Assembly: GCF_000148385.1 (NCBI RefSeq)
Contig: NC_014537.1
Location: 1,020,001 to 1,052,000 of the forward strand
DNA from: Vulcanisaeta distributa DSM 14429
Lineage (GTDB): Archaea > Thermoproteota > Thermoprotei > Thermoproteales > Thermocladiaceae
Reading direction: 5' to 3'
DNA length: 32,000 nt
This document shows, piece by piece, positions 2,955 to 18,134 of the stretch. The notes beneath the pieces were generated by a model. That model saw nothing but the letters and a program-made list of their open reading frames with translations. It did no database searches and was not told the origin of the DNA. Position numbers and translations under genes: made by a program. Every line of letters starts with the position of its first letter. The first letter of the stretch is position 1.

Positions 2955-2979
2955 TCCAATGTAATCCTTAAAGCTTAAT

Positions 2980-3019
2980 AACTAACCCGGGGGGTTAGTA
3001 ACTAACGGGGGGAGTTAGT
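2980..3019. promoter_or_regulatory. two tandem 20-bp units, each carrying the palindrome ACTAAC-N7-GTTAGT, abutting the ATG at 3021
   Basis: Unit 1 (2980-2999) is AACTAACCCGGGGGGTTAGT and unit 2 (3000-3019) is AACTAACGGGGGGAGTTAGT. A TATA-like CTTAAAGCTTAATAA lies just upstream (2967-2981). The operator role is inferred. Confidence 0.5.
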
Positions 3020-5683: not shown

Positions 5684-6139
5684 CTAGGCATTACCTAAGA
5701 GGTCCTCCTCAGGAAGTATGTTATTTACTGGCTCACCCTCATGTGTTAGGAATTGTATGAGGTTTTTATCCCTAGTTAATAACTTTAGGTTTCTAGTAAC
5801 GGCTGTTGCGTATAGAAGTAGGTCTATTAGGTCATTAAAGCCCTTACGTTTAAGTCTAAGGGCTTTAACGTACCCATCAATTGTTGGTTCGGTAAGTATG
5901 AACTCATCATTTATGACTTTTAACCCCCTCATTACGGTATCCTCATCATAATTAAGCCTAGAAAGCTTGCCCAGGATTTCAATAATATTGTATTGTGTGT
6001 AATAGAACTCAGCCTTAAACCTCCTTCTCATCCTTGATAGTACGATTAGTACCTCATCTATACCCTTAACGTTAATACCCACGATGGGTAGGAGATAAGT
6101 TGTATCAAGAAGTATCCGAGGCCTCACTCCAATACTCAT
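5684..6139 (-). CDS. vapC: PIN-domain ribonuclease toxin VapC
   Basis: Acidic PIN positions appear in order: ILLDTTYLL, NIIEIL, NDLIDLLLYATA, LLTRDKNL. The start is taken at the internal ATG (MSIGVRPRILLD), which overlaps the vapB 3' end. Confidence 0.75.
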   Translation of the reverse strand: MSIGVRPRILLDTTYLLPIVGINVKGIDEVLIVLSRMRRRFKAEFYYTQYNIIEILGKLSRLNYDEDTVMRGLKVINDEFILTEPTIDGYVKALRLKRKGFNDLIDLLLYATAVTRNLKLLTRDKNLIQFLTHEGEPVNNILPEEDLLGNA

Positions 6140-6365
6140 TCTGCATCTCCTCAGATTCCCTCTCAAACTCCTCAAAGGTTACCTCAGCGAACTTTTTAAC
6201 TTTCAAAGCATATTCAAACGGGTCCTCAACACGCTCGATAATTATCTTATTACCATCAACCCTCAAAACAACATAATCACCCTCAGAAATGCCCACAGCC
6301 TCAGAAATCGCCTTAGGTATGTAAATAGTATTCTTTTTAGAAACCCTGACCCTAACCTCCAACAT
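6105..6365 (-). CDS. vapB: AbrB/SpoVT-type antitoxin VapB
   Basis: VSKKNTIYIPKAISEAVGISEGDYVVLRVDGNKIIIE is a single swapped-hairpin AbrB domain, followed by an acidic tail. It lies directly upstream of and overlapping the PIN gene. TTTATAAG lies about 30 nt upstream. Confidence 0.75.
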   Translation of the reverse strand: MLEVRVRVSKKNTIYIPKAISEAVGISEGDYVVLRVDGNKIIIERVEDPFEYALKVKKFAEVTFEEFERESEEMQNEYWSEASDTS

Positions 6366-6429: not shown

Positions 6430-6960
6430 TTAAGCTCTGAATCTTTCAAGCAACTTCATCAACTCACGTTCCTCCTGCTCCAACCTCTCATCCCAAATGT
6501 CCCTGAATAACTCCTTAATTGTTAAGGCCCAACTAACAACCTCAATAATGTCGTCCTTAACCTCGTCAGTGTCCCTATAATCGACTAGGTTTGGGTCGAA
6601 GCCATTATAGGAGAACCTATGAAGTAACAGCGCCGTCTTTACTACGGCCTCCACGTCTATACCCAGTTTCTTTAAGTCCTTAGAAATACCTATTAACCCA
6701 GTGGCTGGTGCTGAGTAACCCACGTTCTCATACCAAGCCCTCCTCCTCTCATCCACCCCTTCAATGATTTTGGCAAAATTCTTAACAACCAACGCGCTGA
6801 CTATGGACTTAGCACTCATGAATGCCTTAGCCGAGGCGTTTTGGATAAGGTCCCTGCCCAGCATCTCCAATGCCAACCCAGCCTCAACCAAGCCATCAAG
6901 GACCTTGGCGTACACATACGCCACGGGATCCCTCTTATAATCTAAGTAACCAACCTCCAC
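6430..6960 (-). CDS. PaREP1-like helical protein (tentative)
   Basis: LIQNASAKAFMSAKSIVSALVVKN and LLHRFSYNGFDP resemble the two signature stretches I recall for the PaREP1 family of Thermoproteales. It starts 21 nt after the HEPN-MNT gene. Confidence 0.4.
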   Translation of the reverse strand: MEVGYLDYKRDPVAYVYAKVLDGLVEAGLALEMLGRDLIQNASAKAFMSAKSIVSALVVKNFAKIIEGVDERRRAWYENVGYSAPATGLIGISKDLKKLGIDVEAVVKTALLLHRFSYNGFDPNLVDYRDTDEVKDDIIEVVSWALTIKELFRDIWDERLEQEERELMKLLERFRA

Positions 6961-6981
6961 ATTGGGAACATCATAGGTCGC

Positions 6982-7788
6982 TTAATAATGCTTTTTAGAA
7001 ATTCTATCCCTAAACACGCTGTAATACACGTGATCCAGGTCAGACTCACCGAGTACCCTAACGTACATGTGAGCAATCAACCTCCGCGCAAGTACTGGGT
7101 CAGCTGAATAAATGAGCACGCCATCCCTCAGTACCACGTATATCAACTCATTGGGCGCCTTACTCAAGTCAACCAAGTCAACCTTATCCACTGGCACACC
7201 GAGTGCCTTCGCCAAATCTCTAATTAAACTAACCATTTTCTCATAATTGGATTGATCCCTCATGAGTACGGCAATATCATAATCACTATCCTCCCTAGCA
7301 TCACCCCTGGCGCGACTACCGAAGAGGAACGCCAACAATACGCCATACTTCGTGAAAACCCTGACAAGCGCCTCGCTGGGTGTCTCTGGATCCACGTTAT
7401 TCTCTTCTACCAACCTTAACAACTGGTTAGCTATGCTGGGCACGTTCTTAAGGACCCAGGACCTCAACTCCAACAGTTCATTCCTACTGAAGGACCTATA
7501 GGCATGGGCAAGCATATTCCTATTAATTGCCACTTGTCTAATCAACTCCTTTACATCATCACCTATTAATCCACGCTCATGAAGCACGTCGGCCAACCCA
7601 GCATAACTGGGAGGTTTCCTAAGACCGAGCTCAGCAACAATCATAGCAATCGCATCAAGTAGATCCTGGTGTACGGCATAGAGCAACCACCTAAGGGCAT
7701 ACTCCCGAAACGCATCATTAATCTCCACTAATCTACTCAAGTCGCTTAACTCCTCATAAACTCTGGAAATCAGCGCCCTAACCTCCAT
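6982..7788 (-). CDS. fused HEPN (DUF86/HepT-like) - minimal nucleotidyltransferase (MntA-like) protein
   Basis: The N-terminal half carries RNMLAHAY (RX4HXY, nt 7521-7498). The C-terminal half carries LFGSRARGDAREDSDYDIAV (GSxxRG...DxD, nt 7320-7267). Confidence 0.8.
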   Translation of the reverse strand: MEVRALISRVYEELSDLSRLVEINDAFREYALRWLLYAVHQDLLDAIAMIVAELGLRKPPSYAGLADVLHERGLIGDDVKELIRQVAINRNMLAHAYRSFSRNELLELRSWVLKNVPSIANQLLRLVEENNVDPETPSEALVRVFTKYGVLLAFLFGSRARGDAREDSDYDIAVLMRDQSNYEKMVSLIRDLAKALGVPVDKVDLVDLSKAPNELIYVVLRDGVLIYSADPVLARRLIAHMYVRVLGESDLDHVYYSVFRDRISKKHY

Positions 7789-7940
7789 TCAATGGCTAAA
7801 ACATTGCCGATAATAAATACTTTATGACAATTATGGGCCTATAGGCAATATCATCATTATTTCAAAACTATCAAACTTTAAGCCTATAGAGAAACATTAA
7901 AGCAATAATCTAAGTGCTATTAAGTAATGATGGTTCTAAA

Positions 7941-8831
7941 CTAGCCTTGATAATTAATATAAACAATGCCCCAATTAGCCTGCCCAGCATCATTAGTACC
8001 AGCCACGCCAAATACGTAGTTGCCGCTACCCGGTGGTGTGAAGTAGCCATTTAGACTAAGTGTGAAGCTTGCTGACTGCCCCGTGTTTAAGTCGTATGCA
8101 GTGCCCATTAACGTGTTCGTACTGGGGTTGTAGCTTACCGTAATACATATGTAGTCGCCAGGTCCAGGCTGGAAATAGCCGGTACCAATACCATCCCAAC
8201 CAGAGTAGGGGTTACCTAGATTCGGTGACGGACTTGGGCTGATAGTTACACGAGTTCCTCTACTATTTAAGGCGATCCAGACATTCCACTGCCCACTGGC
8301 GCCGCTGGTTGTGTATGCATATTGCCAGAGCGGGTTCCATTCAATGACGAGGTAGGGTGATGAGCTTTGCGGGAACATTACATCACCCTGCACGGGTGAT
8401 ATCGTGAATGTATAGACATTAGATGAGACGTAGGTTATTGAGTAATTATAACCACTGCCAATGCCCCATCTAGTGGGTCTTAGGAATAGGTAGACTATGT
8501 AGCCATCACCAACGTAAGGATATGCCTGCGATGCCATGGGCGTCCCGTTATTGGAGTATACCCCAATCACGGTTATGGTGATGGTACCGCCGCCATAACT
8601 TTCCTGCCAGAATATGGCGCCTGAAGACCACCCGTAGTTCGAGCTAACCATCTTAAGGATAGGCTGGTTAATGCCTGTCGATATGTAGTACCAGTAGTTG
8701 CTGGGTGAGTTTGAGGAGTCGTAGTAGACGGGCCAGGAATTGGTGGGGTAATACCCCGTGAATGGGTTGCCATAGTCGCCCTGGTATACATGGGGCACGT
8801 ACCAAGTCTGGTAGCCGTCGAGTAGGTTCAT
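7941..8831 (-). CDS. Tyr/Trp/Gly/Asn-rich beta-type protein without its own signal peptide (loosely lectin/ConA-like); last ORF of the surface operon
   Basis: 296-aa ORF. The motif order GDGYIVYLF...LVIEWNP...ICITVSYNPSTNTLMGTAYDL...YVFGVAGTN loosely recalls L-type lectin jelly rolls. The ATG overlaps the upstream stop (TAATG), and no SD precedes it. Confidence 0.6.
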   Translation of the reverse strand: MNLLDGYQTWYVPHVYQGDYGNPFTGYYPTNSWPVYYDSSNSPSNYWYYISTGINQPILKMVSSNYGWSSGAIFWQESYGGGTITITVIGVYSNNGTPMASQAYPYVGDGYIVYLFLRPTRWGIGSGYNYSITYVSSNVYTFTISPVQGDVMFPQSSSPYLVIEWNPLWQYAYTTSGASGQWNVWIALNSRGTRVTISPSPSPNLGNPYSGWDGIGTGYFQPGPGDYICITVSYNPSTNTLMGTAYDLNTGQSASFTLSLNGYFTPPGSGNYVFGVAGTNDAGQANWGIVYINYQG

Positions 8832-9400
8832 TACGTCAGCGCTAGGTGCTTGTATCGTCTCAGTAAATGAGTATATATATATACCACACCCTGCGTTGGC
8901 GTGTAGTTATAAATGCCGCTCAGCGTTATTGGGCTTGTTAATGGGGTGCTTATTGTCAGGTTTTCATAGAGTGTGTAGGTGCCCGTGCTGAGACTTATCG
9001 AGCCAGGGCTTGGGTATATGGGTGTCCCATTAATACTCACACTACTTACGTAATTGTTGTGTCTTATGGCTACCGTTAAAACACCAGCCGCGTATGCCCT
9101 TAAACCAACCAGTGGTGTTGGCACATGAATCACATAACCGCTTGACGTGCTGAGGGTTATCGCGGTTACCGTAGCCGAGAAGCCAGTGTTTGTGTATTGC
9201 CACGAGCTTAAGACACCGCAGCATGGGCATGAGTATGAACCAGTCATTACCGACACCACACTTTTAGCAATCGAATTAGCATTTGCGTAATAAACTATAA
9301 TGACATCGGCAAGTGCAATTGCCGAAGTAACCAATGCCAGCGATAATGCAATAATGAGTAATAGGTTATTCTTCGGCATACTCAACAACCTCAGTACCAC
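8831..9400 (-). CDS. N-terminally anchored Ser/Thr/Tyr-rich surface protein (unknown family)
   Basis: GTG start preceded by GGGAGG (alternative ATG at 9379). TM helix LLLIIALSLALVTSAIALADVIIVY, then a beta-rich body with NGT, NLT and NYT sequons. The last 13 residues are atypically basic. Confidence 0.6.
   Translation of the reverse strand: MVLRLLSMPKNNLLLIIALSLALVTSAIALADVIIVYYANANSIAKSVVSVMTGSYSCPCCGVLSSWQYTNTGFSATVTAITLSTSSGYVIHVPTPLVGLRAYAAGVLTVAIRHNNYVSSVSINGTPIYPSPGSISLSTGTYTLYENLTISTPLTSPITLSGIYNYTPTQGVVYIYTHLLRRYKHLALT
8872..8883. repeat. (TA)6 dinucleotide tract inside coding sequence
   Basis: The plus strand reads g-tatatatatata-c. It lies 41 nt upstream of the ATG at 8831, in the segment where both the upstream and downstream reading frames are open. 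Confidence 0.95.
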
Positions 9401-10136
9401 CCTTCAATGCCTCCCTAATAGACTCATAAATTGCATAGGCCACGGTATCCTCAACGTTGGATCCAGGACTCCCACCGGCTATGACATCGCCCTCAGTCCT
9501 CCGTGATAACAGGATTTTATTGCCCTCGGTCTTAATGAGCAGGTTGCCGACAGCAATGCCATCTGGGGTCTTCGTGTATGGTATACCGAGCCTGTCAAGG
9601 GCTTGTTCTATTGCTGTTGGTGCGCCGTGTTCCTTAACGGCCTCGGCAAGCGACCACCTCCTAAGTCCCAACCACCTTGCCCTGGTTAGCATGTTGAGTA
9701 TGGCTATCGCTGTGGCTACGATTAATACGTAAGTCGGTAAGCCAATGAATGAGTTATGCGGTAATTCAATGTATACGTAACCACTCGGTGTGGGCACTAT
9801 GATAAAGCCCCTCACCTGTAGGTACCTCTGCTGGAAGAGTATGGTGTCTATGAGCATCACCAGTGAGAGCACGGCCAATAAGGCTGACAGGTAAAGCGCG
9901 TAGGCGCTCCTCCTCCAGATAATGAGTATTAGGGCCGAGTCCAGCGCGAAGAAGGACACTAGGTAAACCGTGGGTGGCGGTACCACGTAGGTCACGCCAA
10001 AGAACGTAACTACAAAACCCCAGGGCATCAACCTCAGATAGTAATTACGGCCTGAGACGCCCCAGGCGGGTATGAATAGCCAGGAGACCACGAAGGCAAT
10101 GATCAAGCTAAGAAGTACCAGGACCTCGAGTCTCAT
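9366..10136 (-). CDS. polytopic membrane protein (about 6 TM) with about 100-aa charged C-terminal domain, unknown family
   Basis: Its start overlaps the upstream stop as ATGA, and AGGTGG SD lies 7-8 nt upstream. No peptidase, sortase or transporter motif recognised. Confidence 0.6.
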   Translation of the reverse strand: MRLEVLVLLSLIIAFVVSWLFIPAWGVSGRNYYLRLMPWGFVVTFFGVTYVVPPPTVYLVSFFALDSALILIIWRRSAYALYLSALLAVLSLVMLIDTILFQQRYLQVRGFIIVPTPSGYVYIELPHNSFIGLPTYVLIVATAIAILNMLTRARWLGLRRWSLAEAVKEHGAPTAIEQALDRLGIPYTKTPDGIAVGNLLIKTEGNKILLSRRTEGDVIAGGSPGSNVEDTVAYAIYESIREALKGGTEVVEYAEE

Positions 10137-10933
10137 GACCCACCACCTAACGCAATTACACTACCCAATTGCATATATTGTGTAACATTCCCGTTCGAGA
10201 ATACGTAAGTTACGGTAACGGGCATGTAAAGCACGTAGATAAATCCCTGCTTAAGGTTACAGAAATATACCTGGTTTGCGTACTTCCTAATCGGTATCGT
10301 AATGTTGATGGTGCCGATACCCTGAGGTATGTAAATAGTAATGTTTGGGTTTACGGCGTCAAATACTAGGTAGCCAGGTATGGTATTTTTCGTAAACATG
10401 GAAATTGCCTGAGGCCTAATCATGCCTGGGGTCAATGTTGAATAATTAATACCTATTGTTAAGTTACAATTCTCATAATAGGCATAGGTAATAGTTATAT
10501 TATTAATAACGCGAATTGGCACAACGTCAAAGAACGCAATGTAGGCAGGATCACCATTGAGGTATCCCCTGATCAAACCCCTAACACCCGTATTTGATAA
10601 GGATAGGTACTGTGGGGTTAATGGAAATTGAATAATCATTGTTTCATTATTGGCTATCGTTAAATTACCCACCTGTCCAGTACCGAGCAGTTCCACCCAA
10701 CCACTAATTGGTGTGAAATCCCAATTACCAGGATTAATAATTCTAATAATCACCGTTACACCACTTGCCTGCACATTTATCGACTCAACCTTCGCATATG
10801 GGACGTTCTCCAACGTCATGTAACTCACCAGGGTTGGGGCAACTTGAGACGTGTCCCAAATAAGAATTAAGGCAACCAGGATGGAAAATATGGAAAGGAG
10901 AAGAAATATTTTGAAAGGTGATTTAAAAGCCAC
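10133..10933 (-). CDS. N-terminally anchored, heavily sequon-bearing beta-rich surface protein (unknown family)
   Basis: GTG start preceded by a perfect GAGGTGATC SD. TM anchor FKIFLLLSIFSILVALILIW. At least 8 N-x-S/T sequons. Confidence 0.65.
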   Translation of the reverse strand: MAFKSPFKIFLLLSIFSILVALILIWDTSQVAPTLVSYMTLENVPYAKVESINVQASGVTVIIRIINPGNWDFTPISGWVELLGTGQVGNLTIANNETMIIQFPLTPQYLSLSNTGVRGLIRGYLNGDPAYIAFFDVVPIRVINNITITYAYYENCNLTIGINYSTLTPGMIRPQAISMFTKNTIPGYLVFDAVNPNITIYIPQGIGTINITIPIRKYANQVYFCNLKQGFIYVLYMPVTVTYVFSNGNVTQYMQLGSVIALGGGS

Positions 10934-10940
10934 AACATGA

Positions 10941-11465
10941 TCACCTCGGAACCGGTACGGTGGCGTTAGATACTACGTTGTAACCAAGTAGTACACTCAC
11001 GGTCTCGCTTGTCGAGCTCGTTATTGGGGTGTTGGGTATTACGTACATACTAATGCCATAGTTAGTATTGGCACTTAATGAGCATGGAGCATTACTACTT
11101 GGAGTACTGCCTGGTGCCACATAACCATTGTAGTAGTACGCAGTCCAGGTGCCAGTACTTGTTGAGTACGTAAGTACTATAGTACAGACTATGGCGCTTG
11201 TGCTTGTTATGTCAGTATTGTTCAGATATATGTATAGCGAACTTATTGCTGAAGAGCCTGTACTTGATACCGCATTACCACTAAGCATTGAGGGCACGTA
11301 TAAGTATCCGCTTACAAGCGCCTGTAACACGCCAATATTCACGAAATACGCGCCACTTGAGTTTGTGAGCTCTATGTTAACCTGAAAACCCGCATAGTAT
11401 GGGTTACCATTCGACGTCAGTGGTAGGTCATTTCCTGTGAATGTTACGTACGGGGTTATTGCCAT
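10941..11465 (-). CDS. Ser/Thr/Asn/Tyr-rich beta-type protein lacking signal or TM; possibly the body of a frameshifted gene
   Basis: 174-aa ORF starting inside the 67-aa leader ORF in the +1 frame. No SD upstream. Composition matches the neighbouring surface proteins. Confidence 0.55.
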   Translation of the reverse strand: MAITPYVTFTGNDLPLTSNGNPYYAGFQVNIELTNSSGAYFVNIGVLQALVSGYLYVPSMLSGNAVSSTGSSAISSLYIYLNNTDITSTSAIVCTIVLTYSTSTGTWTAYYYNGYVAPGSTPSSNAPCSLSANTNYGISMYVIPNTPITSSTSETVSVLLGYNVVSNATVPVPR

Positions 11466-11631
11466 TTGGGCCTGTCAGGAATTTCAGCGGTGCAGTCTGT
11501 GAAACACTTATTTGGCCTTGATAAACAAATATCACATCAACCAGCGCTATGGTGGCGATCGCAACGAGCGCTATCGCAGCCAGCATTAACATCCTCCTTT
11601 TCTCGCTCCTTCTCGCAGCCGTGTTGTTCAT
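11428..11631 (-). CDS. 67-aa charged-N-terminus plus single-TM ORF; possibly the detached signal anchor of the next ORF
   Basis: RRSEKRR followed by MLMLAAIALVAIATIALVDVIFVY. First ORF behind the AT-rich promoter region, with TATA-like CTTTTAAG about 30 nt upstream. Its leader motif is shared with the 189-aa ORF. Confidence 0.45.
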   Translation of the reverse strand: MNNTAARRSEKRRMLMLAAIALVAIATIALVDVIFVYQGQISVSQTAPLKFLTGPNGNNPVRNIHRK

Positions 11632-11894
11632 ACCACCACCGTGCTTTAGTGTCGGCTTAAAAGTCTTTCTTTCATTTTCAGATTGATATTGATGTAATTT
11701 AATTGAATTATGTAAAAAGAAAGAGGGCTTCTAGTGGCTATTTATTATATATTTTTAGTCTAGGTTAAATTTAACTTTTTATATTTAAGATGTTAAACTA
11801 CGTATTTTATATTTTCAATTAGTCATCTAGGATACCTTCCTCTTTATAATATTTTTGACGTAATTCTTTTATTAAAAAACGAATTTAATTGCTA

Positions 11895-12221
11895 ATGAGT
11901 AAAGGGCTACCCATTAATAATCTTCCTTACAGGACCAGGGCTTACATTAATAACCAAGTCCTCATCCCAGCTAACTTAGTTAGGGCCCTTGGCATTGAGA
12001 GGGCCAGGTATGCTGACATAGTGATTTCATTCAATGGATTAGTTATTGAGTTGAGGAATGTATTGTTGCTTAGGACTAAGCATACGTCCAGTAGGCAGTT
12101 CACGATTCCTAGGGAGATCAGGGAGCTATACGGGATTAGACCCATGGATCAAATCGAGGTAATCCAAATAAGGCCGAGGTATGTAAAGGAATTTGAGACT
12201 GAACTTACTAGGCCGGTATAG
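11895..12221 (+). CDS. tandem-AbrB/SpoVT-domain DNA-binding protein (putative transcription regulator)
   Basis: Two swapped-hairpin half domains occur in one chain: QVLIPANLVRALGIERARYADIVISF and QFTIPREIRELYGIRPMDQIEVIQI. The maximal ORF starts at TTG 11889, but ATG 11895 is more likely. Confidence 0.6.
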   Translation: MSKGLPINNLPYRTRAYINNQVLIPANLVRALGIERARYADIVISFNGLVIELRNVLLLRTKHTSSRQFTIPREIRELYGIRPMDQIEVIQIRPRYVKEFETELTRPV

Positions 12222-12444: not shown

Positions 12445-13275
12445 CTATTCTATTGAGGATATTGTGGAGTCAATGAGTATGTACATGACGTAGCCCATAA
12501 CCGGTGAATATATGAGTGTGGTTATTATTAAGGCCAGTGTTGGGCTCAGGACTATTGGCCCTAGGTATATGGGTCCTAGTGGTGATAGGGTGATCACAAT
12601 GAGCACGAGGAGTATCGGTAGGAGTAATGCAACGACTAAGTAGATTTCCATGAACAGACCAAGTACTTGGGTCGCACTCCTCAGTCTATTGTACTTGTTC
12701 CTAACTAGGTACTCAAGCTTGAGCATTAGTACGTCGGCCAGGTTTGCACTGATTAGGTATGTCTCGGCTATAAGGCCGAAGATTTCGCCATAGGTCCTTG
12801 ACGGGACCCTGCTGATGCTAGCCCTTAGCGCCGTCAGTATGTCCATACCGCCTTCCCTGGCATCCCTAAGTATTAGCCTAAACTCCCTGGCTATGTATGG
12901 GTCCCTCTCGATGGTGGCTAGGGTACTAATCAACTCCTCAAGGGTAACCCCACTGGCTATCAGTGGTATCATGATCATGAGCGTATTTATTAAGTACCTC
13001 TCGAAGTGGCTTGACCTTATATAGACCTTAGCATTAATGTAAACTAGCACCGATAAGTAATCAATGAGTAGCACAATAACCATAAGGAGCATCACACTCC
13101 TTACTGCACTCATTGGCGTGAGTGCGTAAGCCACCACCAATGCAGCAGCGATTATTGGTGTGTACATGATCACCGCGGCCGCGAAGTCCCTATCGAAGTC
13201 GTAACCGCTGAGTGAGTAAAGTCTATTTACGTAATTATTCACCCAACGCCTATAGGCCGTCAATGGGTTTATCAA
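12445..13275 (-). CDS. half-size type IV filament platform protein (single T2SSF domain, TadC-like)
   Basis: TTG start overlapping the ATPase stop (TTGA), with AGGTGGTG SD. One cytoplasmic helical domain (FERYLINTLMIMIPLIASGVTLEELISTLA...GGMDILTALRAS...) is bracketed by TM helices. Confidence 0.7.
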   Translation of the reverse strand: MINPLTAYRRWVNNYVNRLYSLSGYDFDRDFAAAVIMYTPIIAAALVVAYALTPMSAVRSVMLLMVIVLLIDYLSVLVYINAKVYIRSSHFERYLINTLMIMIPLIASGVTLEELISTLATIERDPYIAREFRLILRDAREGGMDILTALRASISRVPSRTYGEIFGLIAETYLISANLADVLMLKLEYLVRNKYNRLRSATQVLGLFMEIYLVVALLLPILLVLIVITLSPLGPIYLGPIVLSPTLALIITTLIYSPVMGYVMYILIDSTISSIE

Positions 13276-14732
13276 GGCAATTCACCACCTATCACGGCCC
13301 TATAGGTCCTCTCTGGATCAACGTAGTAATTCCTAGTGACCCTAAACACGGCATCGGGCGACCTAAACCCGTACTTGGCCATGGCGGTCATGATCTCAGC
13401 CCTCCTCCTAAGCTCCCTATCAACCTCCTCCTGAGACACCCTGCCCATCCTTACGAGATCTGCAATTAAGGCGCTATCGCTCAACCTGACAAGCTCATCC
13501 CTATCCTTACTCCACCTAAACAGGTTATTAACCCTTAAGCCACTCCTCGTCACATCCAATAACTCGCTAATGTCCGTGACACGCCTAGCAATCCTACCAC
13601 CAATCCTCACCCTATTAATTAGTATGAACACGTTAGCCAGGGGTATTAAGGCTGGAGGAACACTCATGGGCTTGGACAACAGCCTCCTCACGGCCGCGTT
13701 TAGTGAGCTGGCATGTATCGTGGCAAGGCCTGTGTGCCCACTGGCCAACCCCTGAAAGAAGACATAAGCCTCCTCACCCCTTAACTCACCAACAACCAAG
13801 TAATCAGGCCTAATCCTCATGGATACCTTAACTAAATCATAAGCCGTAATATTCTGCACATTGGGTGTTTCGGCCTCCCTAACAACCAATGGAATCCACT
13901 GCTCATGGGGTATGTTTATCTCCCTGGTATCCTCAATAGTCACGATTCTAGCTTCAGGCCTGATTAAAAATAGCAGTGCGTTTAGTAATGTGGTTTTCCC
14001 CGCGCCGGTTGGCCCAATGATTATCATGCTAATGCCATTCTCGAGCATAAACCATAAGGTCGCTAATGCCTCAGCCTTAATAACACCGTCGGTTATTAAG
14101 TCAATGATGGTTATGGGATTAGCCTTAAACTTCCTAATGGTTATTACGGGGCCATGGGGCGAGACATCCCTAAGCCCAAGCTCAACCCTAAGACCCTCAG
14201 GCAGTAAGCCCTCAAGTATTGGGTATGCAGAACTAACGTTCTTACCAACCCTCTGACTAATCTTCACAACGAGACTACTCAACTCATCACTACTCAGGGT
14301 GATATTAGTCCTCAAGTGCTCATACCTACTATGCCACACATAGACAGGCTTGTTGGGCCCATTAATGTTTATATCCTCGATGTAATCATCCTTAATCAGT
14401 GGGTCAACCTTGCCATAACCTACGGTATCCCGCATCAGGTAATACATGACACTCCTCAACTCATCATCATTCAACTTAATCCTCAACCTACCCATTACCT
14501 CATTAACGAGCGATTTAAAGTAATGATCAAGATCATCATTATTAGGCAACGCACTACCCACCCTAAGTAATTCCCTGGCCCTCGCGAGCACCTTGGCAGC
14601 GTTATTGCTGAGTACAGGCTCAACGATGTTGTATAGGTAGAGGCCTGTGTTCTTATCCCTAATAATGAGTACGCCAATCAATCCCTTAACTATTTCGTAC
14701 TCATCGATCAACTCCACACCCTTAATATCCAC
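13272..14732 (-). CDS. type II/IV secretion-family ATPase (FlaI/TadA/VirB11-like) of a type IV filament system
   Basis: Walker A GPTGAGKTTLLNALL, IVTIEDTREI, VVGELRGEEA and the His box GHTGLATIHASS, plus an N-terminal domain of about 200 aa. Confidence 0.85.
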   Translation of the reverse strand: MDIKGVELIDEYEIVKGLIGVLIIRDKNTGLYLYNIVEPVLSNNAAKVLARARELLRVGSALPNNDDLDHYFKSLVNEVMGRLRIKLNDDELRSVMYYLMRDTVGYGKVDPLIKDDYIEDININGPNKPVYVWHSRYEHLRTNITLSSDELSSLVVKISQRVGKNVSSAYPILEGLLPEGLRVELGLRDVSPHGPVITIRKFKANPITIIDLITDGVIKAEALATLWFMLENGISMIIIGPTGAGKTTLLNALLFLIRPEARIVTIEDTREINIPHEQWIPLVVREAETPNVQNITAYDLVKVSMRIRPDYLVVGELRGEEAYVFFQGLASGHTGLATIHASSLNAAVRRLLSKPMSVPPALIPLANVFILINRVRIGGRIARRVTDISELLDVTRSGLRVNNLFRWSKDRDELVRLSDSALIADLVRMGRVSQEEVDRELRRRAEIMTAMAKYGFRSPDAVFRVTRNYYVDPERTYRAVIGGELP

Positions 14733-14824: not shown

Positions 14825-15733
14825 ATGTATAGGGGGTTTACGCTACGGTTGGTGACTACGGTGATTGTGGTAATCACCATTATTACATTCTACATAATAT
14901 TACCAAAGACTTATGTCCAAGTCAGCATTGGTAAATTAACACTAAGTGTTCCAATACCCTACGGCATACTGGGGACCACGTTGACGGCCATAGCCATCGC
15001 AGCCGAGCTATTGCCACTATCAATCACTGAGTATAGGTTATGGAGGGTGAATAACGAAATACTCGTGGACATGCCCGCGGTAGTTAGGGTGATAAGGGAT
15101 GGCTTAGGTTCGGGTCAACCCCTCGTTGGTGTTGCGGAGATGCTCACTAGGGTTGGTAAGGGTAGACTTGGCAGGATAATTGCCGAGGCCATTACTAAGG
15201 AGAGCATGGGCATAACGACAATGAAGGAGGGCCTCGCCGAGGTTTCGAGGGAGCTTGGCAACAATTACCTGGCGGTACTCGCGGTGATACTTGATACGGC
15301 GATTAGGTCTGGGGCTCGGCTCCAGGAAACCCTCGACATGGCTTACAAATCCCTCGAGGACATGGTAAGCTACCAACTGGAGAAGGCCAACCAGGTTAAG
15401 CCTTACCTAGCCTTGATATACGTGGTCATGGCAATATACGTAGTACTCGCTGGAATAATTATCTACCTAATGATGCCAAGCATAGGTAAAATAGCGATAT
15501 CAACATCAGCAGGGGCAATCACGGCGCCGACAATATCCGTAATAGACACCCAGCTATTCTCATCAATCATAGTAATGAGCAGTGTAATCCAATCAATAAT
15601 CGCAGGCGTGATAATTGGGAGGATTGTCTATGGCAGGTCAATCGTTGGATTACTACACGCATCCATATTAATAATGGTACTCACACTAATTAATTACGTA
15701 ATGTACTTAACAATGTACTTAGGCGTAATATGA
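14825..15733 (+). CDS. half-size type IV filament platform protein (single T2SSF domain, TadB-like)
   Basis: N-terminal TMs, then a cytoplasmic helical domain (ILVDMPAVVRVIRDGLGSGQPLVGVAEML...NYLAVLAVILDTAIRSGARLQETL), then C-terminal TMs. Confidence 0.65.
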   Translation: MYRGFTLRLVTTVIVVITIITFYIILPKTYVQVSIGKLTLSVPIPYGILGTTLTAIAIAAELLPLSITEYRLWRVNNEILVDMPAVVRVIRDGLGSGQPLVGVAEMLTRVGKGRLGRIIAEAITKESMGITTMKEGLAEVSRELGNNYLAVLAVILDTAIRSGARLQETLDMAYKSLEDMVSYQLEKANQVKPYLALIYVVMAIYVVLAGIIIYLMMPSIGKIAISTSAGAITAPTISVIDTQLFSSIIVMSSVIQSIIAGVIIGRIVYGRSIVGLLHASILIMVLTLINYVMYLTMYLGVI

Positions 15734-15769
15734 AACTTAAGTAAATTCAAATCGTAATTGAAAGAAAGG

Positions 15770-15778
15770 TTTATAAAA
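15770..15778 (+). promoter_or_regulatory. TATA-like box for the pilin gene cluster
   Basis: TTTATAAAA preceded by purine-rich AAAGAAAGG, 24-32 nt upstream of ATG 15802. Confidence 0.5.
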
Positions 15779-15801
15779 GATTGAAAATAAATTAGGAATC
15801 G

Positions 15802-16266
15802 ATGACCAGAAATAGAAACAACAGAAAAAGCCTTGGTATAGAGCCAATCGTTGCAGCCATACTACTGATAGTCATAACCGTGGTAGCCGCAGTACTACTC
15901 TACATGTGGTTCAGCGGATACTTATCCGCAACAACAAGTAAGGTTAGCTCAATGGCAACGCCAGAGCAGTTCCAAGTAGTCGCGGCAAGCCTATCAGTAA
16001 GTAAGGGATTGACCGCCTACGTACAGAACACGGGCTCAGTGACAGTAACCATAACGGGCGTCTACCTACTAAACGCAACGAATGGAAACCTAATATGCCA
16101 AGTACCAATAACGGCAACCTCAATAACGCCAGGCTCAACGGTAGCAATCACAAATAGCACAAGCTTTGCATCATCATGCGGCGTAACACCAGGCACATCG
16201 TATGAGCTGCTATTCGTGACCTCAAGCGGCACCAAGTACGCAACGTCTGTTGTGGCATCATCGTAA
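15802..16266 (+). CDS. archaeal type IV pilin-like protein (class III signal peptide, DUF361-like N-terminus)
   Basis: MTRNRNNRKSLG|IEPIVAAILLIVITVVAAVLLY matches the archaeal pilin/flagellin N-terminal pattern (basic region, Gly at -1, about 20 hydrophobic residues). The body is Thr/Ser-rich. Confidence 0.75.
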   Translation: MTRNRNNRKSLGIEPIVAAILLIVITVVAAVLLYMWFSGYLSATTSKVSSMATPEQFQVVAASLSVSKGLTAYVQNTGSVTVTITGVYLLNATNGNLICQVPITATSITPGSTVAITNSTSFASSCGVTPGTSYELLFVTSSGTKYATSVVASS

Positions 16267-16321
16267 ATAATAAAATACATAAGTCATGTTAAGTCAAAAT
16301 CACGCCGCAGGTGATTTTCCC

Positions 16322-16771
16322 ATGATTTCCATTGGCATTAGTGAGGTTGTGGGTGCGACAATACTGCTCGTCATAGCCGTGGCCCTTAGCTTGTTAATCT
16401 TCGGATACTTCTACGGGTACTTAGAGTCGCTTGGTTACTCACTCGCTAATGCACTGTCGGGTTCTTGCGAGTTCTCGATAATGAGCACGGCATTTAACAC
16501 CACGGGCTCCTCAATAACATCAATAAGCATAGCCCTGTACAACTACGGTAATAAGCCGTGCGATATATCCGGCGTATATGTGCTTAATGAATCAACAGTG
16601 TACCAGATAGCCGTGGCAAATAACTGCATAACGAACCCGCTGGCTAGGTTGGGCCCTGGTCAGGTGCTTATGCTCAATTACTCAAACTTAAATATCCCAT
16701 ATAACACAAATTACTTAGTTAAGGTGGTTTCCTGTGATGGGTTCACGGCCGAGGAGGGGCTTGGACAGTAG
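16322..16771 (+). CDS. archaeal type IV pilin-like protein
   Basis: MISIG|ISEVVGATILLVIAVALSLLIF. The start is set at ATG 16322 because AGGTGAT SD lies 8 nt upstream; the maximal ORF begins at 16286. Confidence 0.6.
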   Translation: MISIGISEVVGATILLVIAVALSLLIFGYFYGYLESLGYSLANALSGSCEFSIMSTAFNTTGSSITSISIALYNYGNKPCDISGVYVLNESTVYQIAVANNCITNPLARLGPGQVLMLNYSNLNIPYNTNYLVKVVSCDGFTAEEGLGQ

Positions 16772-18134
16772 GGGATTGGGGGAGCTTTACATAATGGCTA
16801 TAATAATCATGATAGTCATTGTATCGCTCGCTGTAATCTACTCCGTACTCAACGGCTTCAGTAAGTACGTGGCTGAGGAGAAACAATCACTGCAATCCAT
16901 TAGAGGTACAGAGGTGAGCGTTTCATTAAGTGGGTTTAATACTGTGGGTAGTAATTACGTAATTACCATGAAGTTAAGCAATGCCATGCCCCTTAGTAAT
17001 GCTGAAGCCATATGCAGGTATAGCGTGGGTAATGCGCAGTATATGCAGTATTGTAGCTACGTAATTAATGGCGATGTGGTATACGTAACGGTACCAGGCA
17101 CGTTAGTGAATAAGGGGGTGGGTAACCTGGTGGTACTGGTACCAACAGCATCCGGCTTAACGCCAGGCATAAGCCTCTATCGAGGGCCAATAGAGGTTAG
17201 TGTAATAGCACCGCCCGTTGTTTACCAGGGATCAGCGAGCACTGTGGACATCACCGTTCTGCTGATTAATAATTCCACCGGTTGGGTTAATGCCACGGTA
17301 ATAGCCAACGTGAATGGAAATACCATAGCTAATAGTACAATAATGCCACCAAGCGGTGCAGCGGCGACATCAATACCGGTTGGCATAACGAGCGCCGGAA
17401 CCACATCAATACCAATAACGGTGCTTATTAATAATTACACAGAGACCGTACCCGCAGTACAATTAATTGTGCAGCAATCACCAACATCCACAACCACATC
17501 ATCATTACCAGCCACATGCCAAAGCATGGCATTTGGGTACATAGGGAACGCAACAACAAATGGACTACAGAGCTATGTCTACCCTGGAGTTGGTCCAGGG
17601 CTTAGTTACGGCGATGAAGCACTACAAAACAGCGTAATAGATGGCTTCCCCAACCCAATATACACTTACGCCATAGAGACAGGCCCACCACCGCCAAGTG
17701 GGTACACAATCATGTACTATTACAACGTATTTCCCCTAAGCATTAAGGTTGGTAATTACCCAAACGTAACTGCCTACGTATATCCCGTGGACTTCACAAC
17801 GGACGCCATACCCTTCTTCTTCATAGTGACGAATAATCACTACGCAATAGTTATCTATTGGCAGGTGGGCACATCGAGCCCGAGCTCCTTGGCAATAAGT
17901 AATATAGATGCTGGGATAGGGAGCTTAACGGTACCAAACGGCGGCAATATAAAGAAGTTCTTCAATGTAAATGGAGGTACAATACCCATTAACGCCTGGA
18001 CCGGCTATACACTCGATGTAACCAACTACGTTGGTAGTAATGTGGATTACCAATACGTGGGCTTCGGAATATACTTACCAAACACGTCCCAGTCCCAGGG
18101 GCAGTCATACTGGGACTACATATGCATTGGTTAG
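16734..18134 (+). CDS. large pilin-like protein with extra C-terminal domain (candidate minor pilin/adhesin)
   Basis: RGLG|ELYIMAIIIMIVIVSLAVIY class-III-like N-terminus, with AAGGTGG SD upstream. The linker SPTSTTTSS (17478-17504) separates two domains, each holding one Cys pair. It overlaps the previous gene by 38 nt. Confidence 0.6.
   Translation: MMGSRPRRGLDSRGLGELYIMAIIIMIVIVSLAVIYSVLNGFSKYVAEEKQSLQSIRGTEVSVSLSGFNTVGSNYVITMKLSNAMPLSNAEAICRYSVGNAQYMQYCSYVINGDVVYVTVPGTLVNKGVGNLVVLVPTASGLTPGISLYRGPIEVSVIAPPVVYQGSASTVDITVLLINNSTGWVNATVIANVNGNTIANSTIMPPSGAAATSIPVGITSAGTTSIPITVLINNYTETVPAVQLIVQQSPTSTTTSSLPATCQSMAFGYIGNATTNGLQSYVYPGVGPGLSYGDEALQNSVIDGFPNPIYTYAIETGPPPPSGYTIMYYYNVFPLSIKVGNYPNVTAYVYPVDFTTDAIPFFFIVTNNHYAIVIYWQVGTSSPSSLAISNIDAGIGSLTVPNGGNIKKFFNVNGGTIPINAWTGYTLDVTNYVGSNVDYQYVGFGIYLPNTSQSQGQSYWDYICIG

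What the first reader, a model, noticed from the sequence alone, without database searches (positions are those of the whole stretch)
8831..8909. (TA)6 tract sits exactly where the anchored ORF and the signal-less lectin-like ORF could be fused
On the minus strand the 189-aa ORF reads ...GGT GTG GTA TAT ATA TAT ACT CAT... and stops at TAA 8833-8831. Its last 13 residues (THLLRRYKHLALT) are basic and unlike the rest of the protein. The frame of the downstream 296-aa ORF stays open upstream of its ATG (8831) back to a TAA at 8909-8907. That open stretch crosses the (TA)6 tract at 8872-8883 and reads ...GIYIYSFTETIQAPSADV-MNLLDGY. Loss of one TA unit, or a -1 ribosomal slip, would join the two into one ORF of about 485 aa: anchor, beta domain, then lectin-like domain. 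Two observations support this. The 296-aa ORF has no signal or TM segment although its composition looks extracellular. It also lacks the SD that precedes the other internal genes (GAGGTGATC before 10933, AGGTGG before 10136, GGGAGG before 9400). The site could be a slipped-strand on/off switch, a programmed frameshift, a recent pseudogenising mutation or an assembly error.
Basis: partly seen in the sequence, partly recalled or inferred. Interest (0 to 1): 0.65.

Follow-up and report, generated by a model that had tools for sequence, protein, structure and literature searches.

The report
Pilus adhesin gene broken by TA-repeat slip
Two neighbouring "genes" in the hot-spring archaeon Vulcanisaeta distributa are the halves of one cell-surface adhesin gene, split by two extra bases at a short TA repeat. 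This is most likely an ordinary recent inactivating mutation, not a programmed switch.

Summary
(TA)6 lies at 8872-8883. ORF1 stops at TAA 8833-8831, which overlaps the ATG of ORF2, and the ORF2 frame is open back to 8906.

The window is Vulcanisaeta distributa DSM 14429. The two ORFs close a type IV pilus-like operon.

About 50 homologues from Vulcanisaeta, Caldivirga, Acidilobus and Thermoproteus are single proteins of 450-480 aa that cover 98-100% of the fused sequence. The alignment has no gap across the junction. The 13 residues SFTETIQAPSADV, encoded upstream of the ORF2 ATG, are highly conserved, and that ATG is a conserved internal Met. The basic tail of ORF1 is out-of-frame junk.

Compared with the closest intact orthologue, the window has 2 extra bases within 8868-8884. 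Twelve of those 17 bases are the TA tract.

The tract is absent from orthologues. There is no slippery heptamer and no downstream RNA structure. No tract-length variant was found in any public dataset, and read sets from three sequencing runs reproduce (TA)6 exactly.

A second pilin-like gene in the same operon (67 aa + 174 aa) is also split, by +1 base at a C-run.

Verdict: a real, recent frameshift pseudogene caused by slipped-strand gain of one TA unit and annotated as two genes. Reversible switching is not excluded but has no support.

The parts
8872..8883 (.). (TA)6 tract, the probable site of a one-unit (+2 nt) slipped-strand expansion
   Evidence: Sequence. Unique in the window, expected 0.03 by chance. 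The only dinucleotide repeat of >=5 units in 32 kb.
8868..8884 (-). Interval to which the 2-nt insertion is confined: 17 nt here against 15 nt in the intact orthologue of Vulcanisaeta sp. JCM 14467
   Evidence: Codon-level and MAFFT comparison: GTA TAT ATA TAT ACT CA|TTT against ACG TAC ATT TAC ACC|TTC.
8834..9379 (-). 5' fragment of the broken gene: N-terminal hydrophobic helix plus first beta domain. The last 13 codons (8872-8834, THLLRRYKHLALT) are out-of-frame junk. The stop TAA is 8833-8831.
   Evidence: 61% identity to residues 1-171 of the JCM 14467 orthologue. The tail has no counterpart in 46 aligned homologues. The AF2 model shows helix 3-34 and a beta domain at 42-176.
7941..8870 (-). 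3' fragment of the broken gene in the ORF2 frame: 13 'hidden' codons SFTETIQAPSADV (8870-8832), then the annotated 296-aa ORF (8831-7941) encoding the lectin-like domain
   Evidence: The junction is gap-free and conserved: E173, T174, N184 and L185 are invariant; S170 and M183 are >=90%. 78% identity to JCM 14467. Pfam PA14 is just below threshold. Foldseek hits to legume lectins are weak.
11451..11455 (-). Second frameshift in the same operon: +1 nt at a C-run (AACCCCGTAC against AACTCC-TAC in V. distributa JCM 11217)
   Evidence: Reproduced in Logan contigs of SRR060023 and SRR3924012.
10941..11631 (-). Second broken pilin-like gene: a 67-aa anchor fragment (11428-11631) plus a 174-aa anchor-less fragment (10941-11465). 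Relatives have one gene of about 199 aa.
   Evidence: Single 199-aa genes in L003 and L005. The two parts are in one frame in L012.
13272..14732 (-). FlaI/VirB11-family secretion ATPase, the first gene of the operon
   Evidence: PF00437 at 6.9e-32. NCBIfam FlaI at 2e-96, below the equivalog cut-off.
12445..13275 (-). TadC/T2SSF-type membrane platform protein
   Evidence: PF00482 at 3.1e-11.
9366..10933 (-). Two intact operon genes: 266 aa with an N-terminal anchor (10133-10933) and a 256-aa polytopic membrane protein (9366-10136)
   Evidence: ORFs. Full-length collinear orthologues of 267 and 257 aa in JCM 14467.

Best explanation
ORF1 (8831-9379) and ORF2 (7941-8831) are the two halves of one ancestral gene of about 478 codons. 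It encodes a surface protein with an N-terminal hydrophobic helix, a beta-sandwich domain and a lectin-like C-terminal domain. It is the last gene of a type IV pilus-like operon (ATPase, TadC, pilin-like gene, two membrane proteins, adhesin) in Vulcanisaeta distributa DSM 14429.

In this strain the gene carries a genuine 2-bp insertion. The most likely cause is gain of one TA unit by slipped-strand mispairing, (TA)5 to (TA)6. The insertion shifts the frame, adds 13 junk residues and stops translation at a TAA that happens to overlap a conserved internal Met codon.

The expected result is a truncated anchor fragment. At best, termination-reinitiation at TAATG would also give a cytoplasmic lectin domain with no anchor, which cannot reach the surface. 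So this is a recent loss-of-function (pseudogene) state that has been annotated as two genes.

A second pilin-like gene of the operon is broken independently by +1 nt at a C-run, so this pilus system is probably out of use in the sequenced strain. The species is reported to encode up to seven such systems.

Shown: one-gene ancestry, the position and size of the indel, and its reality in the reads. Inferred: the TA-unit mechanism, the recency, and the loss of function.
For: - **Fused orthologues.** The fused query hits about 50 protein clusters of 450-480 aa at 98-100% coverage. The best are Vulcanisaeta sp. JCM 14467 (73% identity, 479 aa), Acidilobus and Thermoproteus.
- **Junction conserved.** The 47-sequence alignment has no gap across the junction. 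Invariant E173, T174, N184 and L185, and >=90% S170 and M183, are all encoded in the ORF2 frame upstream of, or at, the supposed start.
- **Operon conserved.** Gene order is the same in the related genomic loci fetched (L003/L006, L005, L007, L008, L009, L012), and each has a single collinear orthologue in place of ORF1 plus ORF2.
- **Indel mapped.** Nucleotide comparison puts a +2 indel within 8868-8884, and 12 of those 17 nt are (TA)6. Restoring (TA)5 gives YIYSFTETI, with the family-consensus Ser.
- **Tract unique.** It is the only such tract in the window, with 0.03 expected. Dimeric repeats of about 10 bp or more are described as highly mutable (PMC3315296).
- **Real in the reads.** Logan contigs from SRR060023, SRR060963 and SRR3924012 are 100% identical to the window at both frameshift sites. 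The genome is finished at 106x (PMC3035369).
- **ORF2 alone looks non-functional.** It has no SD. 106 of the 120 listed homologues score a hydrophobic anchor upstream of the lectin-like domain. Most of the rest look like truncated or mis-started fragments, and three show an anchor but lack the marker motif.
- **Recent.** The fused protein has 21 deviations at otherwise near-invariant columns, against 17 and 21 in intact relatives, and no further stops.
- **Operon-level decay.** A second frameshift lies at 11451-11455 in another pilin-like gene.
- **Redundancy.** V. distributa is reported to encode up to 7 such systems (PMC4858521).
Against: - The exact placement of the 2 extra bases is ambiguous. 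Deleting CA from ACTCATTT instead gives YIYTFTETI, which is identical to the closest orthologue.
- No relative is close enough to polarise the event. The best N-terminal identity is 61%.
- Consensus assemblies cannot show minority tract lengths, so reversibility is not excluded.
- What SRR3924012 is, and how independent it is, could not be established.
- Both halves are otherwise intact. That also fits a reversible 'off' state or a functional split.
- Pili were observed on this strain (PMC3035369), though they could come from other systems.
Confidence: 0.72

Rival explanations
1. Reversible phase variation. The (TA)n tract is a contingency switch. Slippage between (TA)5/(TA)8 (in frame) and (TA)6/(TA)7 (out of frame) turns the pilus adhesin on and off in the population, and the sequenced culture is in the 'off' phase.
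For: - A 12-bp dinucleotide repeat sits inside a surface-adhesin gene, and the frameshift maps to it.
- (TA)5 and (TA)8 both restore the full ORF.
- The gene shows no other damage.
- Dimeric repeats of about 10 bp or more are regarded as highly mutable (PMC3315296).
Against: - The tract is not conserved. JCM 14467 has TAC ATT TAC, and other relatives encode YYYG or FLYS, so there is no sign of selection for a repeat.
- Six units is short for a dedicated switch.
- No (TA)4, (TA)5 or (TA)7 product exists among about 15 billion public proteins, and no variant DNA was found in metagenomes.
- The three named runs (two from about 2010, one later) all give (TA)6.
- The second frameshift in the operon lies at a 4-base C-run, not a hypermutable tract. 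Reverting the TA tract alone would therefore probably not restore the pilus.
Confidence: 0.12
2. Programmed recoding. Ribosomal frameshifting (-1 or +2) or transcriptional slippage on the TA tract yields some full-length protein from the (TA)6 allele.
For: tRNA-Tyr on UAU could re-pair two bases downstream on UAC, which would produce exactly YIYSFTE (sequence).
Against: - There is no X XXY YYZ heptamer.
- The downstream 102 nt fold no better than shuffles (z = +0.53).
- All orthologues are in frame with no repeat, so the frameshift is not a conserved feature.
- To my knowledge, known transcriptional slippage uses long homopolymers, and none of >=8 exists in the window.
Confidence: 0.04
3. Sequencing or assembly artefact. 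The true genome has (TA)5 and an intact gene.
For: - The reference was made from 454 reads only (PMC3035369).
- The second frameshift is next to a homopolymer (CCCC), the classic type of 454 error.
- Two of the supporting runs (SRR060023, SRR060963) are probably the same 454 project, judging from their accession range.
Against: - A TA alternation contains no homopolymer and is read accurately by pyrosequencing.
- Coverage is 106x and the sequence is finished, with a stated error rate below 1 in 100,000.
- A later run, SRR3924012, and one further sample assemble to the identical sequence at both sites.
Confidence: 0.05
4. Genuine two-gene architecture. After the split, an anchored beta-domain protein and a separate soluble lectin-like protein are both functional. 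ORF2 is translated by termination-reinitiation at the TAATG overlap.
For: - Stop and start overlap in TAATG, a common coupling arrangement.
- ORF2 begins almost exactly at the lectin-domain boundary used by paralogues...QVILNLLNGQQ....
- Both ORFs are intact.
Against: - No homologue has this architecture.
- Among the 120 listed homologues, the lectin domain is preceded by an anchor wherever the N-terminus looks complete.
- Thirteen conserved residues are lost and replaced by an unrelated basic tail.
- ORF2 has no SD.
- The TAA arises only because the Val codon here is GTA. JCM 14467 has GTC and no stop.
Confidence: 0.05

Closest known systems
Frameshift pseudogenes created by slipped-strand mispairing at short simple-sequence repeats in prokaryotic coding regions
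   Same: One repeat unit is gained in a dinucleotide tract inside a gene. The frame is lost, and the two collinear halves are annotated as separate CDS. Orthologues are intact.
   Different: Nothing essential differs. This particular instance, a hyperthermophilic crenarchaeon with a pilus adhesin, does not appear in the literature I could search.
Bacterial SSR contingency loci, i.e. phase-variable surface-protein genes with intragenic repeats (for example in Neisseria, Haemophilus and Campylobacter; recalled from general knowledge and from PMC3315296 and PMC11868660)
   Same: An intragenic repeat in an adhesin or pilus gene, where changes in unit number switch the reading frame on and off.
   Different: Here the repeat is short (6 units), absent from orthologues, and shows no length polymorphism in any available dataset. 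A second, non-repeat frameshift lies in the same operon.
Thermoproteales-specific archaeal type IV pilus-like systems (Makarova et al. 2016, PMC4858521)
   Same: An operon of a VirB11/FlaI-family ATPase, a TadC and fast-evolving secreted components, with extra membrane proteins. The paper describes this as typical of Vulcanisaeta and Caldivirga loci.
   Different: I did not determine the clade assignment of this locus. No canonical class III signal-peptide cleavage motif is evident in the anchors (by eye). The paper mentions neither a lectin-like terminal protein nor frameshifts in V. distributa.
Legume-lectin / ConA-like and PA14 carbohydrate-binding beta-sandwich domains
   Same: The C-terminal domain gives Foldseek hits to many legume lectins (E about 3e-4, probability up to 1.0) and a near-threshold Pfam PA14/GLEYA match.
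   Different: TM-scores are low (0.3-0.4) with high rmsd. The model's pLDDT is only 69 and residues 179-253 are unresolved. PA14 scores 23.3 bits against a 24-bit cut-off. No sequence match to any solved structure was found.

Membership tests
Frameshift pseudogene (one gene split by an indel) | Orthologues encode one uninterrupted protein that covers both ORFs collinearly | tested here: met
   About 50 clusters at 98-100% coverage and 450-480 aa. The tblastn hits of ORF1 and ORF2 are adjacent in all the related loci with a full-length match.
Frameshift pseudogene (one gene split by an indel) | Conserved residues continue in the other frame across the break, and the tail after the break is unrelated to the family | tested here: met
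   SFTETIQAPSADV is conserved and gap-free. THLLRRYKHLALT has no counterpart.
Frameshift pseudogene (one gene split by an indel) | The indel is real in the DNA, not an assembly error | tested here: met
   Contigs from the read sets of three named runs are identical to the window. Raw reads were not inspected.
Frameshift pseudogene (one gene split by an indel) | No full-length functional product is made | not testable with these tools
   Needs proteomics or a Western blot.
SSR-mediated phase-variable (contingency) locus | A hypermutable simple-sequence repeat in the coding region, positioned so that changes in unit number switch the frame | tested here: met
   (TA)6 of 12 bp at the frameshift site. 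(TA)5 and (TA)8 are in frame; (TA)4, (TA)6 and (TA)7 are out of frame.
SSR-mediated phase-variable (contingency) locus | Tract-length polymorphism within or between populations | tested here: inconclusive
   No variant product among about 15 billion proteins, no variant DNA in metagenomes, and the same tract in every run found. Only consensus assemblies could be examined, not reads.
SSR-mediated phase-variable (contingency) locus | The repeat is maintained in related strains or species | tested here: not met
   JCM 14467 has TAC ATT TAC ACC. Other Vulcanisaeta encode YYYG, and Acidilobus encodes FLYS.
Programmed -1 ribosomal frameshift | A slippery heptamer X XXY YYZ at the shift site | tested here: not met
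   GTA TAT ATA TAT ACT allows no -1 re-pairing.
Programmed -1 ribosomal frameshift | A stimulatory downstream RNA structure | tested here: not met
   MFE -19.4 against a shuffle mean of -20.9; z = +0.53.
Programmed -1 ribosomal frameshift | The frameshift is conserved among orthologues | tested here: not met
   All full-length homologues are in frame.
Archaeal type IV pilus-like (TFF) system | A VirB11/FlaI-family assembly ATPase | tested here: met
   PF00437 at 6.9e-32 and 110.9 bits, against a cut-off of 24.9.
Archaeal type IV pilus-like (TFF) system | A TadC/FlaJ (T2SSF) platform protein | tested here: met
   PF00482 at 43.8 bits, against a cut-off of 25.2.
Archaeal type IV pilus-like (TFF) system | Filament subunits with a class III signal peptide and an N-terminal hydrophobic helix | tested here: inconclusive
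   An N-terminal helix followed by a beta domain is predicted, and the anchors share an ADV(I/V)(F/Y)xY motif. No canonical [KR][GA] cleavage motif is visible, and no dedicated predictor was run.
Archaeal type IV pilus-like (TFF) system | A prepilin peptidase (PibD/FlaK) in the genome | not tested
   None identified among the window proteins scanned. The rest of the genome was not available.
PA14 / legume-lectin-like carbohydrate-binding domain | A match above the curated family threshold, or a confident fold match | tested here: inconclusive
   PA14 scores 23.3 bits against a 24-bit cut-off. Foldseek hits to legume lectins have E about 3e-4 and TMt 0.3-0.4, from a model with pLDDT 69.

The most novel reading that the evidence does not exclude
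The (TA)n tract is a working, reversible on/off switch for the terminal lectin-like adhesin of a type IV pilus in a hyperthermophilic crenarchaeon growing at 90 C. To my knowledge this would be the first repeat-mediated phase variation documented in Archaea. Translational +2 re-pairing on UAU-UAC might add a low level of leaky expression.
Probability: 0.1. Interest if true: 0.6.

Novelty: new member of a known kind. Interest (0 to 1): 0.25.

Why it matters
The practical value is an annotation correction. Four CDS in the V. distributa DSM 14429 genome (182/189 aa + 296 aa, and 67 aa + 174 aa) are really two frameshifted genes of one pilus operon. The anchor-less 'lectin' and the anchor-less 174-aa protein should not be treated as independent families or as cytoplasmic proteins.

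The finding also defines a conserved gene of about 470 aa at the end of a Vulcanisaeta/Caldivirga/Acidilobus/Thermoproteus pilus-like operon. It encodes an anchor, a beta domain and a lectin-like domain, and is a candidate pilus-associated adhesin.

If the tract turned out to vary in length in cultures, it would be a rare and testable case of contingency-locus behaviour in Archaea. Nothing found here points that way.

Tried and rejected
- **Variant products.** I looked up the exact predicted products of (TA)4, (TA)5 and (TA)7, and of an alternative CA deletion, each with the possible start codons. None is present among about 15 billion proteins.
- **Metagenome DNA.** I scanned metagenome contigs for the flanks with a variable-length tract and got 0 hits.
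- **Polarising the indel.** The nearest relatives (JCM 14467, JCM 16159, JCM 16161, and the 'V. distributa' drafts BBBI and JCM 11217) are too divergent at the junction. Several drafts are riddled with their own frameshifts, so TA gain and CA gain cannot be strictly separated.
- **RNA structure.** I looked for a frameshift-stimulating structure downstream of the tract and found none.
- **Origin of the runs.** A literature search for SRR3924012 and SRR060023 found nothing.
- **Solved structures.** A sequence search of the PDB with the family profile gave no meaningful hit.
- **Genome-collection scan.** It returned only 7 loci and did not include the window's own genome.
- **Functional split.** I considered a functional two-gene architecture and rejected it. 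No homologue shows it, and the lectin-like domain is preceded by an anchor wherever the N-terminus looks complete.
Full report
**1. The observation.**
On the minus strand the sequence reads GGT GTG GTA TAT ATA TAT ACT CAT TTA CTG AGA CGA TAC AAG CAC CTA GCG CTG ACG TAA TG. The coordinates check out as follows.
- The (TA)6 tract is 8872-8883.
- The 189-aa ORF (8831..9400) ends at TAA 8833-8831.
- The A of that stop is the A of the ATG (8831-8829) that opens the 296-aa ORF (7941..8831).
- The ORF2 frame is open upstream to TAA 8909-8907 and reads ...GIYIYSFTETIQAPSADV-MNLLDGY.

The tract is the only (TA)>=5 and the only dinucleotide repeat of five or more units in the 32-kb window. Shuffles give an expectation of 0.03.

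**2. Where the window comes from, and the context.**
The window's proteins sit on a 2,374,137-bp contig. That is the stated size of the Vulcanisaeta distributa IC-017T / DSM 14429 chromosome (PMC3035369).

The two ORFs are the last genes of a minus-strand operon with this order:
- a FlaI/VirB11-type ATPase (13272-14732; PF00437 at 6.9e-32);
- a TadC/T2SSF platform protein (12445-13275; PF00482 at 3.1e-11);
- a 67-aa anchored ORF overlapping a 174-aa anchor-less ORF;
- a 266-aa anchored protein;
- a 256-aa polytopic membrane protein;
- ORF1 and ORF2.

This is a type IV pilus-like locus of the kind described as extremely diverse in Thermoproteales. V. distributa is reported to encode up to seven such systems (PMC4858521).

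**3. Orthologues are fused.**
I joined the two ORFs by removing one TA unit, which gives 478 aa from ATG 9379, and searched with that sequence.
- About 50 protein clusters of 450-480 aa cover 98-100% of the query. The best is a 479-aa protein of Vulcanisaeta sp. JCM 14467 at 73% identity. Others come from Vulcanisaeta, Acidilobus, Thermoproteus and many hot-spring metagenomes.
- A 47-sequence alignment has no gap across the junction. The consensus there is GV(S/T)(F/Y)xY(S)F(S/T)ETI(N/Q)(P/A)PSA(N/D)VMNLL(N/D)G.
- Y169, E173, T174, N184 and L185 are invariant, and S170 and M183 are conserved in at least 90% of sequences.

Three conclusions follow. The 13 codons upstream of the ORF2 ATG are real coding sequence. 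The ATG is a conserved internal methionine, not a start. The basic tail THLLRRYKHLALT is out-of-frame read-through.

The related genomic loci fetched (JCM 14467, JCM 16159, two in Caldivirga sp. MU80, and two drafts labelled V. distributa) have the same gene order and a single collinear orthologue.

106 of the 120 listed homologues score a hydrophobic anchor upstream of the lectin-like domain. Most exceptions look like fragments cut by contig ends or by mis-called starts. An anchor-less ORF2 is therefore an anomaly.

**4. Mapping the lesion.**
Codon-by-codon comparison with JCM 14467 gives the following alignment.
- Window: GGT GTG GTA TAT ATA TAT ACT CA|T TTA CTG
- JCM 14467: GGT GTG ACG TAC ATT TAC ACC |TTC ACC G

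Between the conserved GTG and the conserved TT(T/C) the window has 17 nt where the orthologue has 15. The 2-nt insertion therefore lies in 8868-8884, and 12 of those 17 nt are the TA tract.

Restoring (TA)5 yields ...GVVYIYSFTETIQ..., with the family-consensus serine. Deleting CA from ACTCATTT instead would yield ...YIYTFTETIQ..., identical to JCM 14467. The two cannot be strictly separated because no relative is close enough. However, unit gain in the only 12-bp dinucleotide repeat in 32 kb is by far the more likely mutational route. Dimeric repeats of about 10 bp or more are regarded as highly mutable (PMC3315296).

**5. Is it real?**
The reference genome was built from 454 reads only, at 106x, and finished to a stated error rate below 1 in 100,000. 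A TA alternation contains no homopolymer, so it is not an error-prone context for pyrosequencing (my knowledge).

Logan assemblies of SRR060023, SRR060963 and SRR3924012 are 100% identical to the window over 2.5-6.9 kb that includes the tract. At least one further run shares a contig with them. I could not establish what SRR3924012 is. Its accession range suggests a sequencing effort years after the genome project. An assembly or sequencing artefact is unlikely.

**6. Switch, recoding or decay?**
- The repeat is not conserved. JCM 14467 has TAC ATT TAC, other Vulcanisaeta encode YYYG, and Acidilobus encodes FLYS.
- No product of a (TA)4, (TA)5 or (TA)7 allele exists among about 15 billion public protein sequences. 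No metagenome contig carries the flanks with any tract length.
- There is no X XXY YYZ slippery heptamer. The 102 nt downstream fold no better than shuffled sequence (z = +0.53). The only pairing-preserving slip would be an unusual +2 shift of tRNA-Tyr from UAU to UAC.
- A second gene of the same operon is also frameshifted. The 67-aa and 174-aa ORFs correspond to one 199-aa gene in JCM 14467 and in BBBI01000008.
- Against the 83-94% identical copy in V. distributa JCM 11217, the window has one extra base at AACCCCGTAC versus AACTCC-TAC (11451-11455). This frameshift is also reproduced in two runs. A four-base C-run is not a contingency repeat.
- Two independent frameshifts therefore hit two of the operon's secreted pilin-like genes (the third anchored gene, the 266-aa ORF, is intact). 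The genome paper reports 51 pseudogenes among 2,593 predicted genes. That pattern points to loss of use of this pilus system rather than to a designed switch.
- The fused protein shows no excess of changes at otherwise near-invariant columns: 21, against 17 and 21 in intact relatives. It has no further stops. The event is therefore recent.
- Pili were seen on this strain, but they could come from the other pilus systems the species is reported to encode.

**7. What the protein is.**
An AlphaFold2 model of the repaired protein has mean pLDDT 69 and pTM 0.61. It shows an N-terminal helix (3-34), a confident beta domain (42-176), an unresolved stretch (179-253) and a second beta-rich domain.
- Foldseek against the PDB returns many legume lectins at E about 3e-4, with probability up to 1.0 but TM-scores of only 0.3-0.4.
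- Pfam PA14 scores 23.3 bits against a cut-off of 24.
- The family profile finds no solved structure by sequence.

'Lectin-like' is a reasonable description but weakly supported. In paralogues the same domain follows a signal anchor directly, or follows a zinc-ribbon plus a transmembrane segment. ORF2 therefore corresponds to a natural domain unit.

The most likely role is a pilus-associated or surface-anchored carbohydrate-binding adhesin. This is inferred from the operon context and the fold, and has not been shown.

**8. Mechanism, as far as it can be stated.**
- Shown: one ancestral gene; a +2 indel within 8868-8884; a premature stop 13 codons later; reproducibility in the reads.
- Inferred: replication slippage added one TA unit. 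The truncated product of about 180 aa keeps the anchor and first domain but loses the lectin-like domain. Any ORF2 product made by reinitiation at TAATG would lack an export signal. Together with the second frameshift, this pilus system is non-functional in DSM 14429.

**9. Comparison with what is known, and novelty.**
This is an ordinary repeat-associated frameshift pseudogene that has been annotated as two genes. It resembles bacterial contingency loci in having an intragenic repeat in an adhesin gene. It fails or leaves open their defining tests: repeat conservation is not met, and length polymorphism was not found at the consensus level. It fails all three tests for programmed -1 frameshifting.

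The Thermoproteales pilus survey does not mention frameshifts or lectin-like components. I found no description of this case in the literature I could search.

**10. Verdict.**
The best explanation is a real, recent TA-unit-gain frameshift that inactivates a pilus adhesin gene (confidence about 0.7). Reversible phase variation remains possible (about 0.1) and would be the only interesting outcome. Interest is 0.25.

Noticed in passing
window 10941-11631 (-); frameshift at 11451-11455: A second split gene in the same operon. The 67-aa anchored ORF and the overlapping 174-aa anchor-less ORF are one gene of about 199 aa in relatives. The window has +1 nt at a C-run (AACCCCGTAC against AACTCC-TAC in JCM 11217). 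The 174-aa ORF's ATG has no SD and is absent from the relative.
   Followed up: yes
L012 (V. distributa JCM 11217) 6635-10221 against window 7941-11631; also L005: Identity between strains labelled V. distributa changes abruptly along the operon. In L012 the pilin-like gene is 83-94% identical and the 266-aa gene about 82%, but the 256-aa membrane protein is 36%, ORF1 45% and ORF2 31%. L005 shows a different mosaic. This suggests cassette-like replacement or very fast evolution of the distal adhesin module.
   Followed up: partly
Homologues P0051-P0120: The domain of about 290 aa (...NLLNGQQYFGVPHVYQGD...YVNYQG) forms a large paralogous family in hot-spring archaea. N-termini vary: a signal anchor directly, a zinc-ribbon (PF13240) plus a transmembrane segment, or long proteins of 575-818 aa. 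It has no Pfam family of its own.
   Followed up: partly
L005 (BBBI01000008.1) and L009 (BBDN01000007.1): These JCM draft genomes have nearly every gene of the operon broken by frameshifts, including the ATPase in 2-3 pieces. This looks like sequencing error, so they cannot be used to judge split versus fused states.
   Followed up: partly
window 6982-7788 (-): A single 268-aa ORF combines an N-terminal HepT-like (HEPN) ribonuclease domain with a C-terminal Pol-beta/MNT nucleotidyltransferase domain. These usually form a two-gene toxin-antitoxin pair. It lies next to PaREP1 (6430-6960) and a MazE/AbrB-like plus PIN pair (5684-6365).
   Followed up: no
window 14825-18134 (+): A divergently transcribed cluster next to the ATPase has a second T2SSF-like gene (302 aa) and ORFs of 154, 161 and 466 aa. 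It is conserved in JCM 14467 (L003 1-3282). It may be a second set of platform and pilin components sharing the ATPase.
   Followed up: no
window 11889-12221 (+): A 110-aa ORF on the opposite strand lies between the TadC gene and the first pilin-like gene. It is called as a 108-aa gene with a faint MazE/AbrB-type hit in a Logan contig (L014). It may be a small regulator embedded in the operon.
   Followed up: no
window 2975-3019: A 20-bp tandem repeat (2.2 copies, TTAGTAACTAACCCGGGGAG) lies immediately upstream of the ATG at 3021 of an archaeal ATPase_2-family gene.
   Followed up: no
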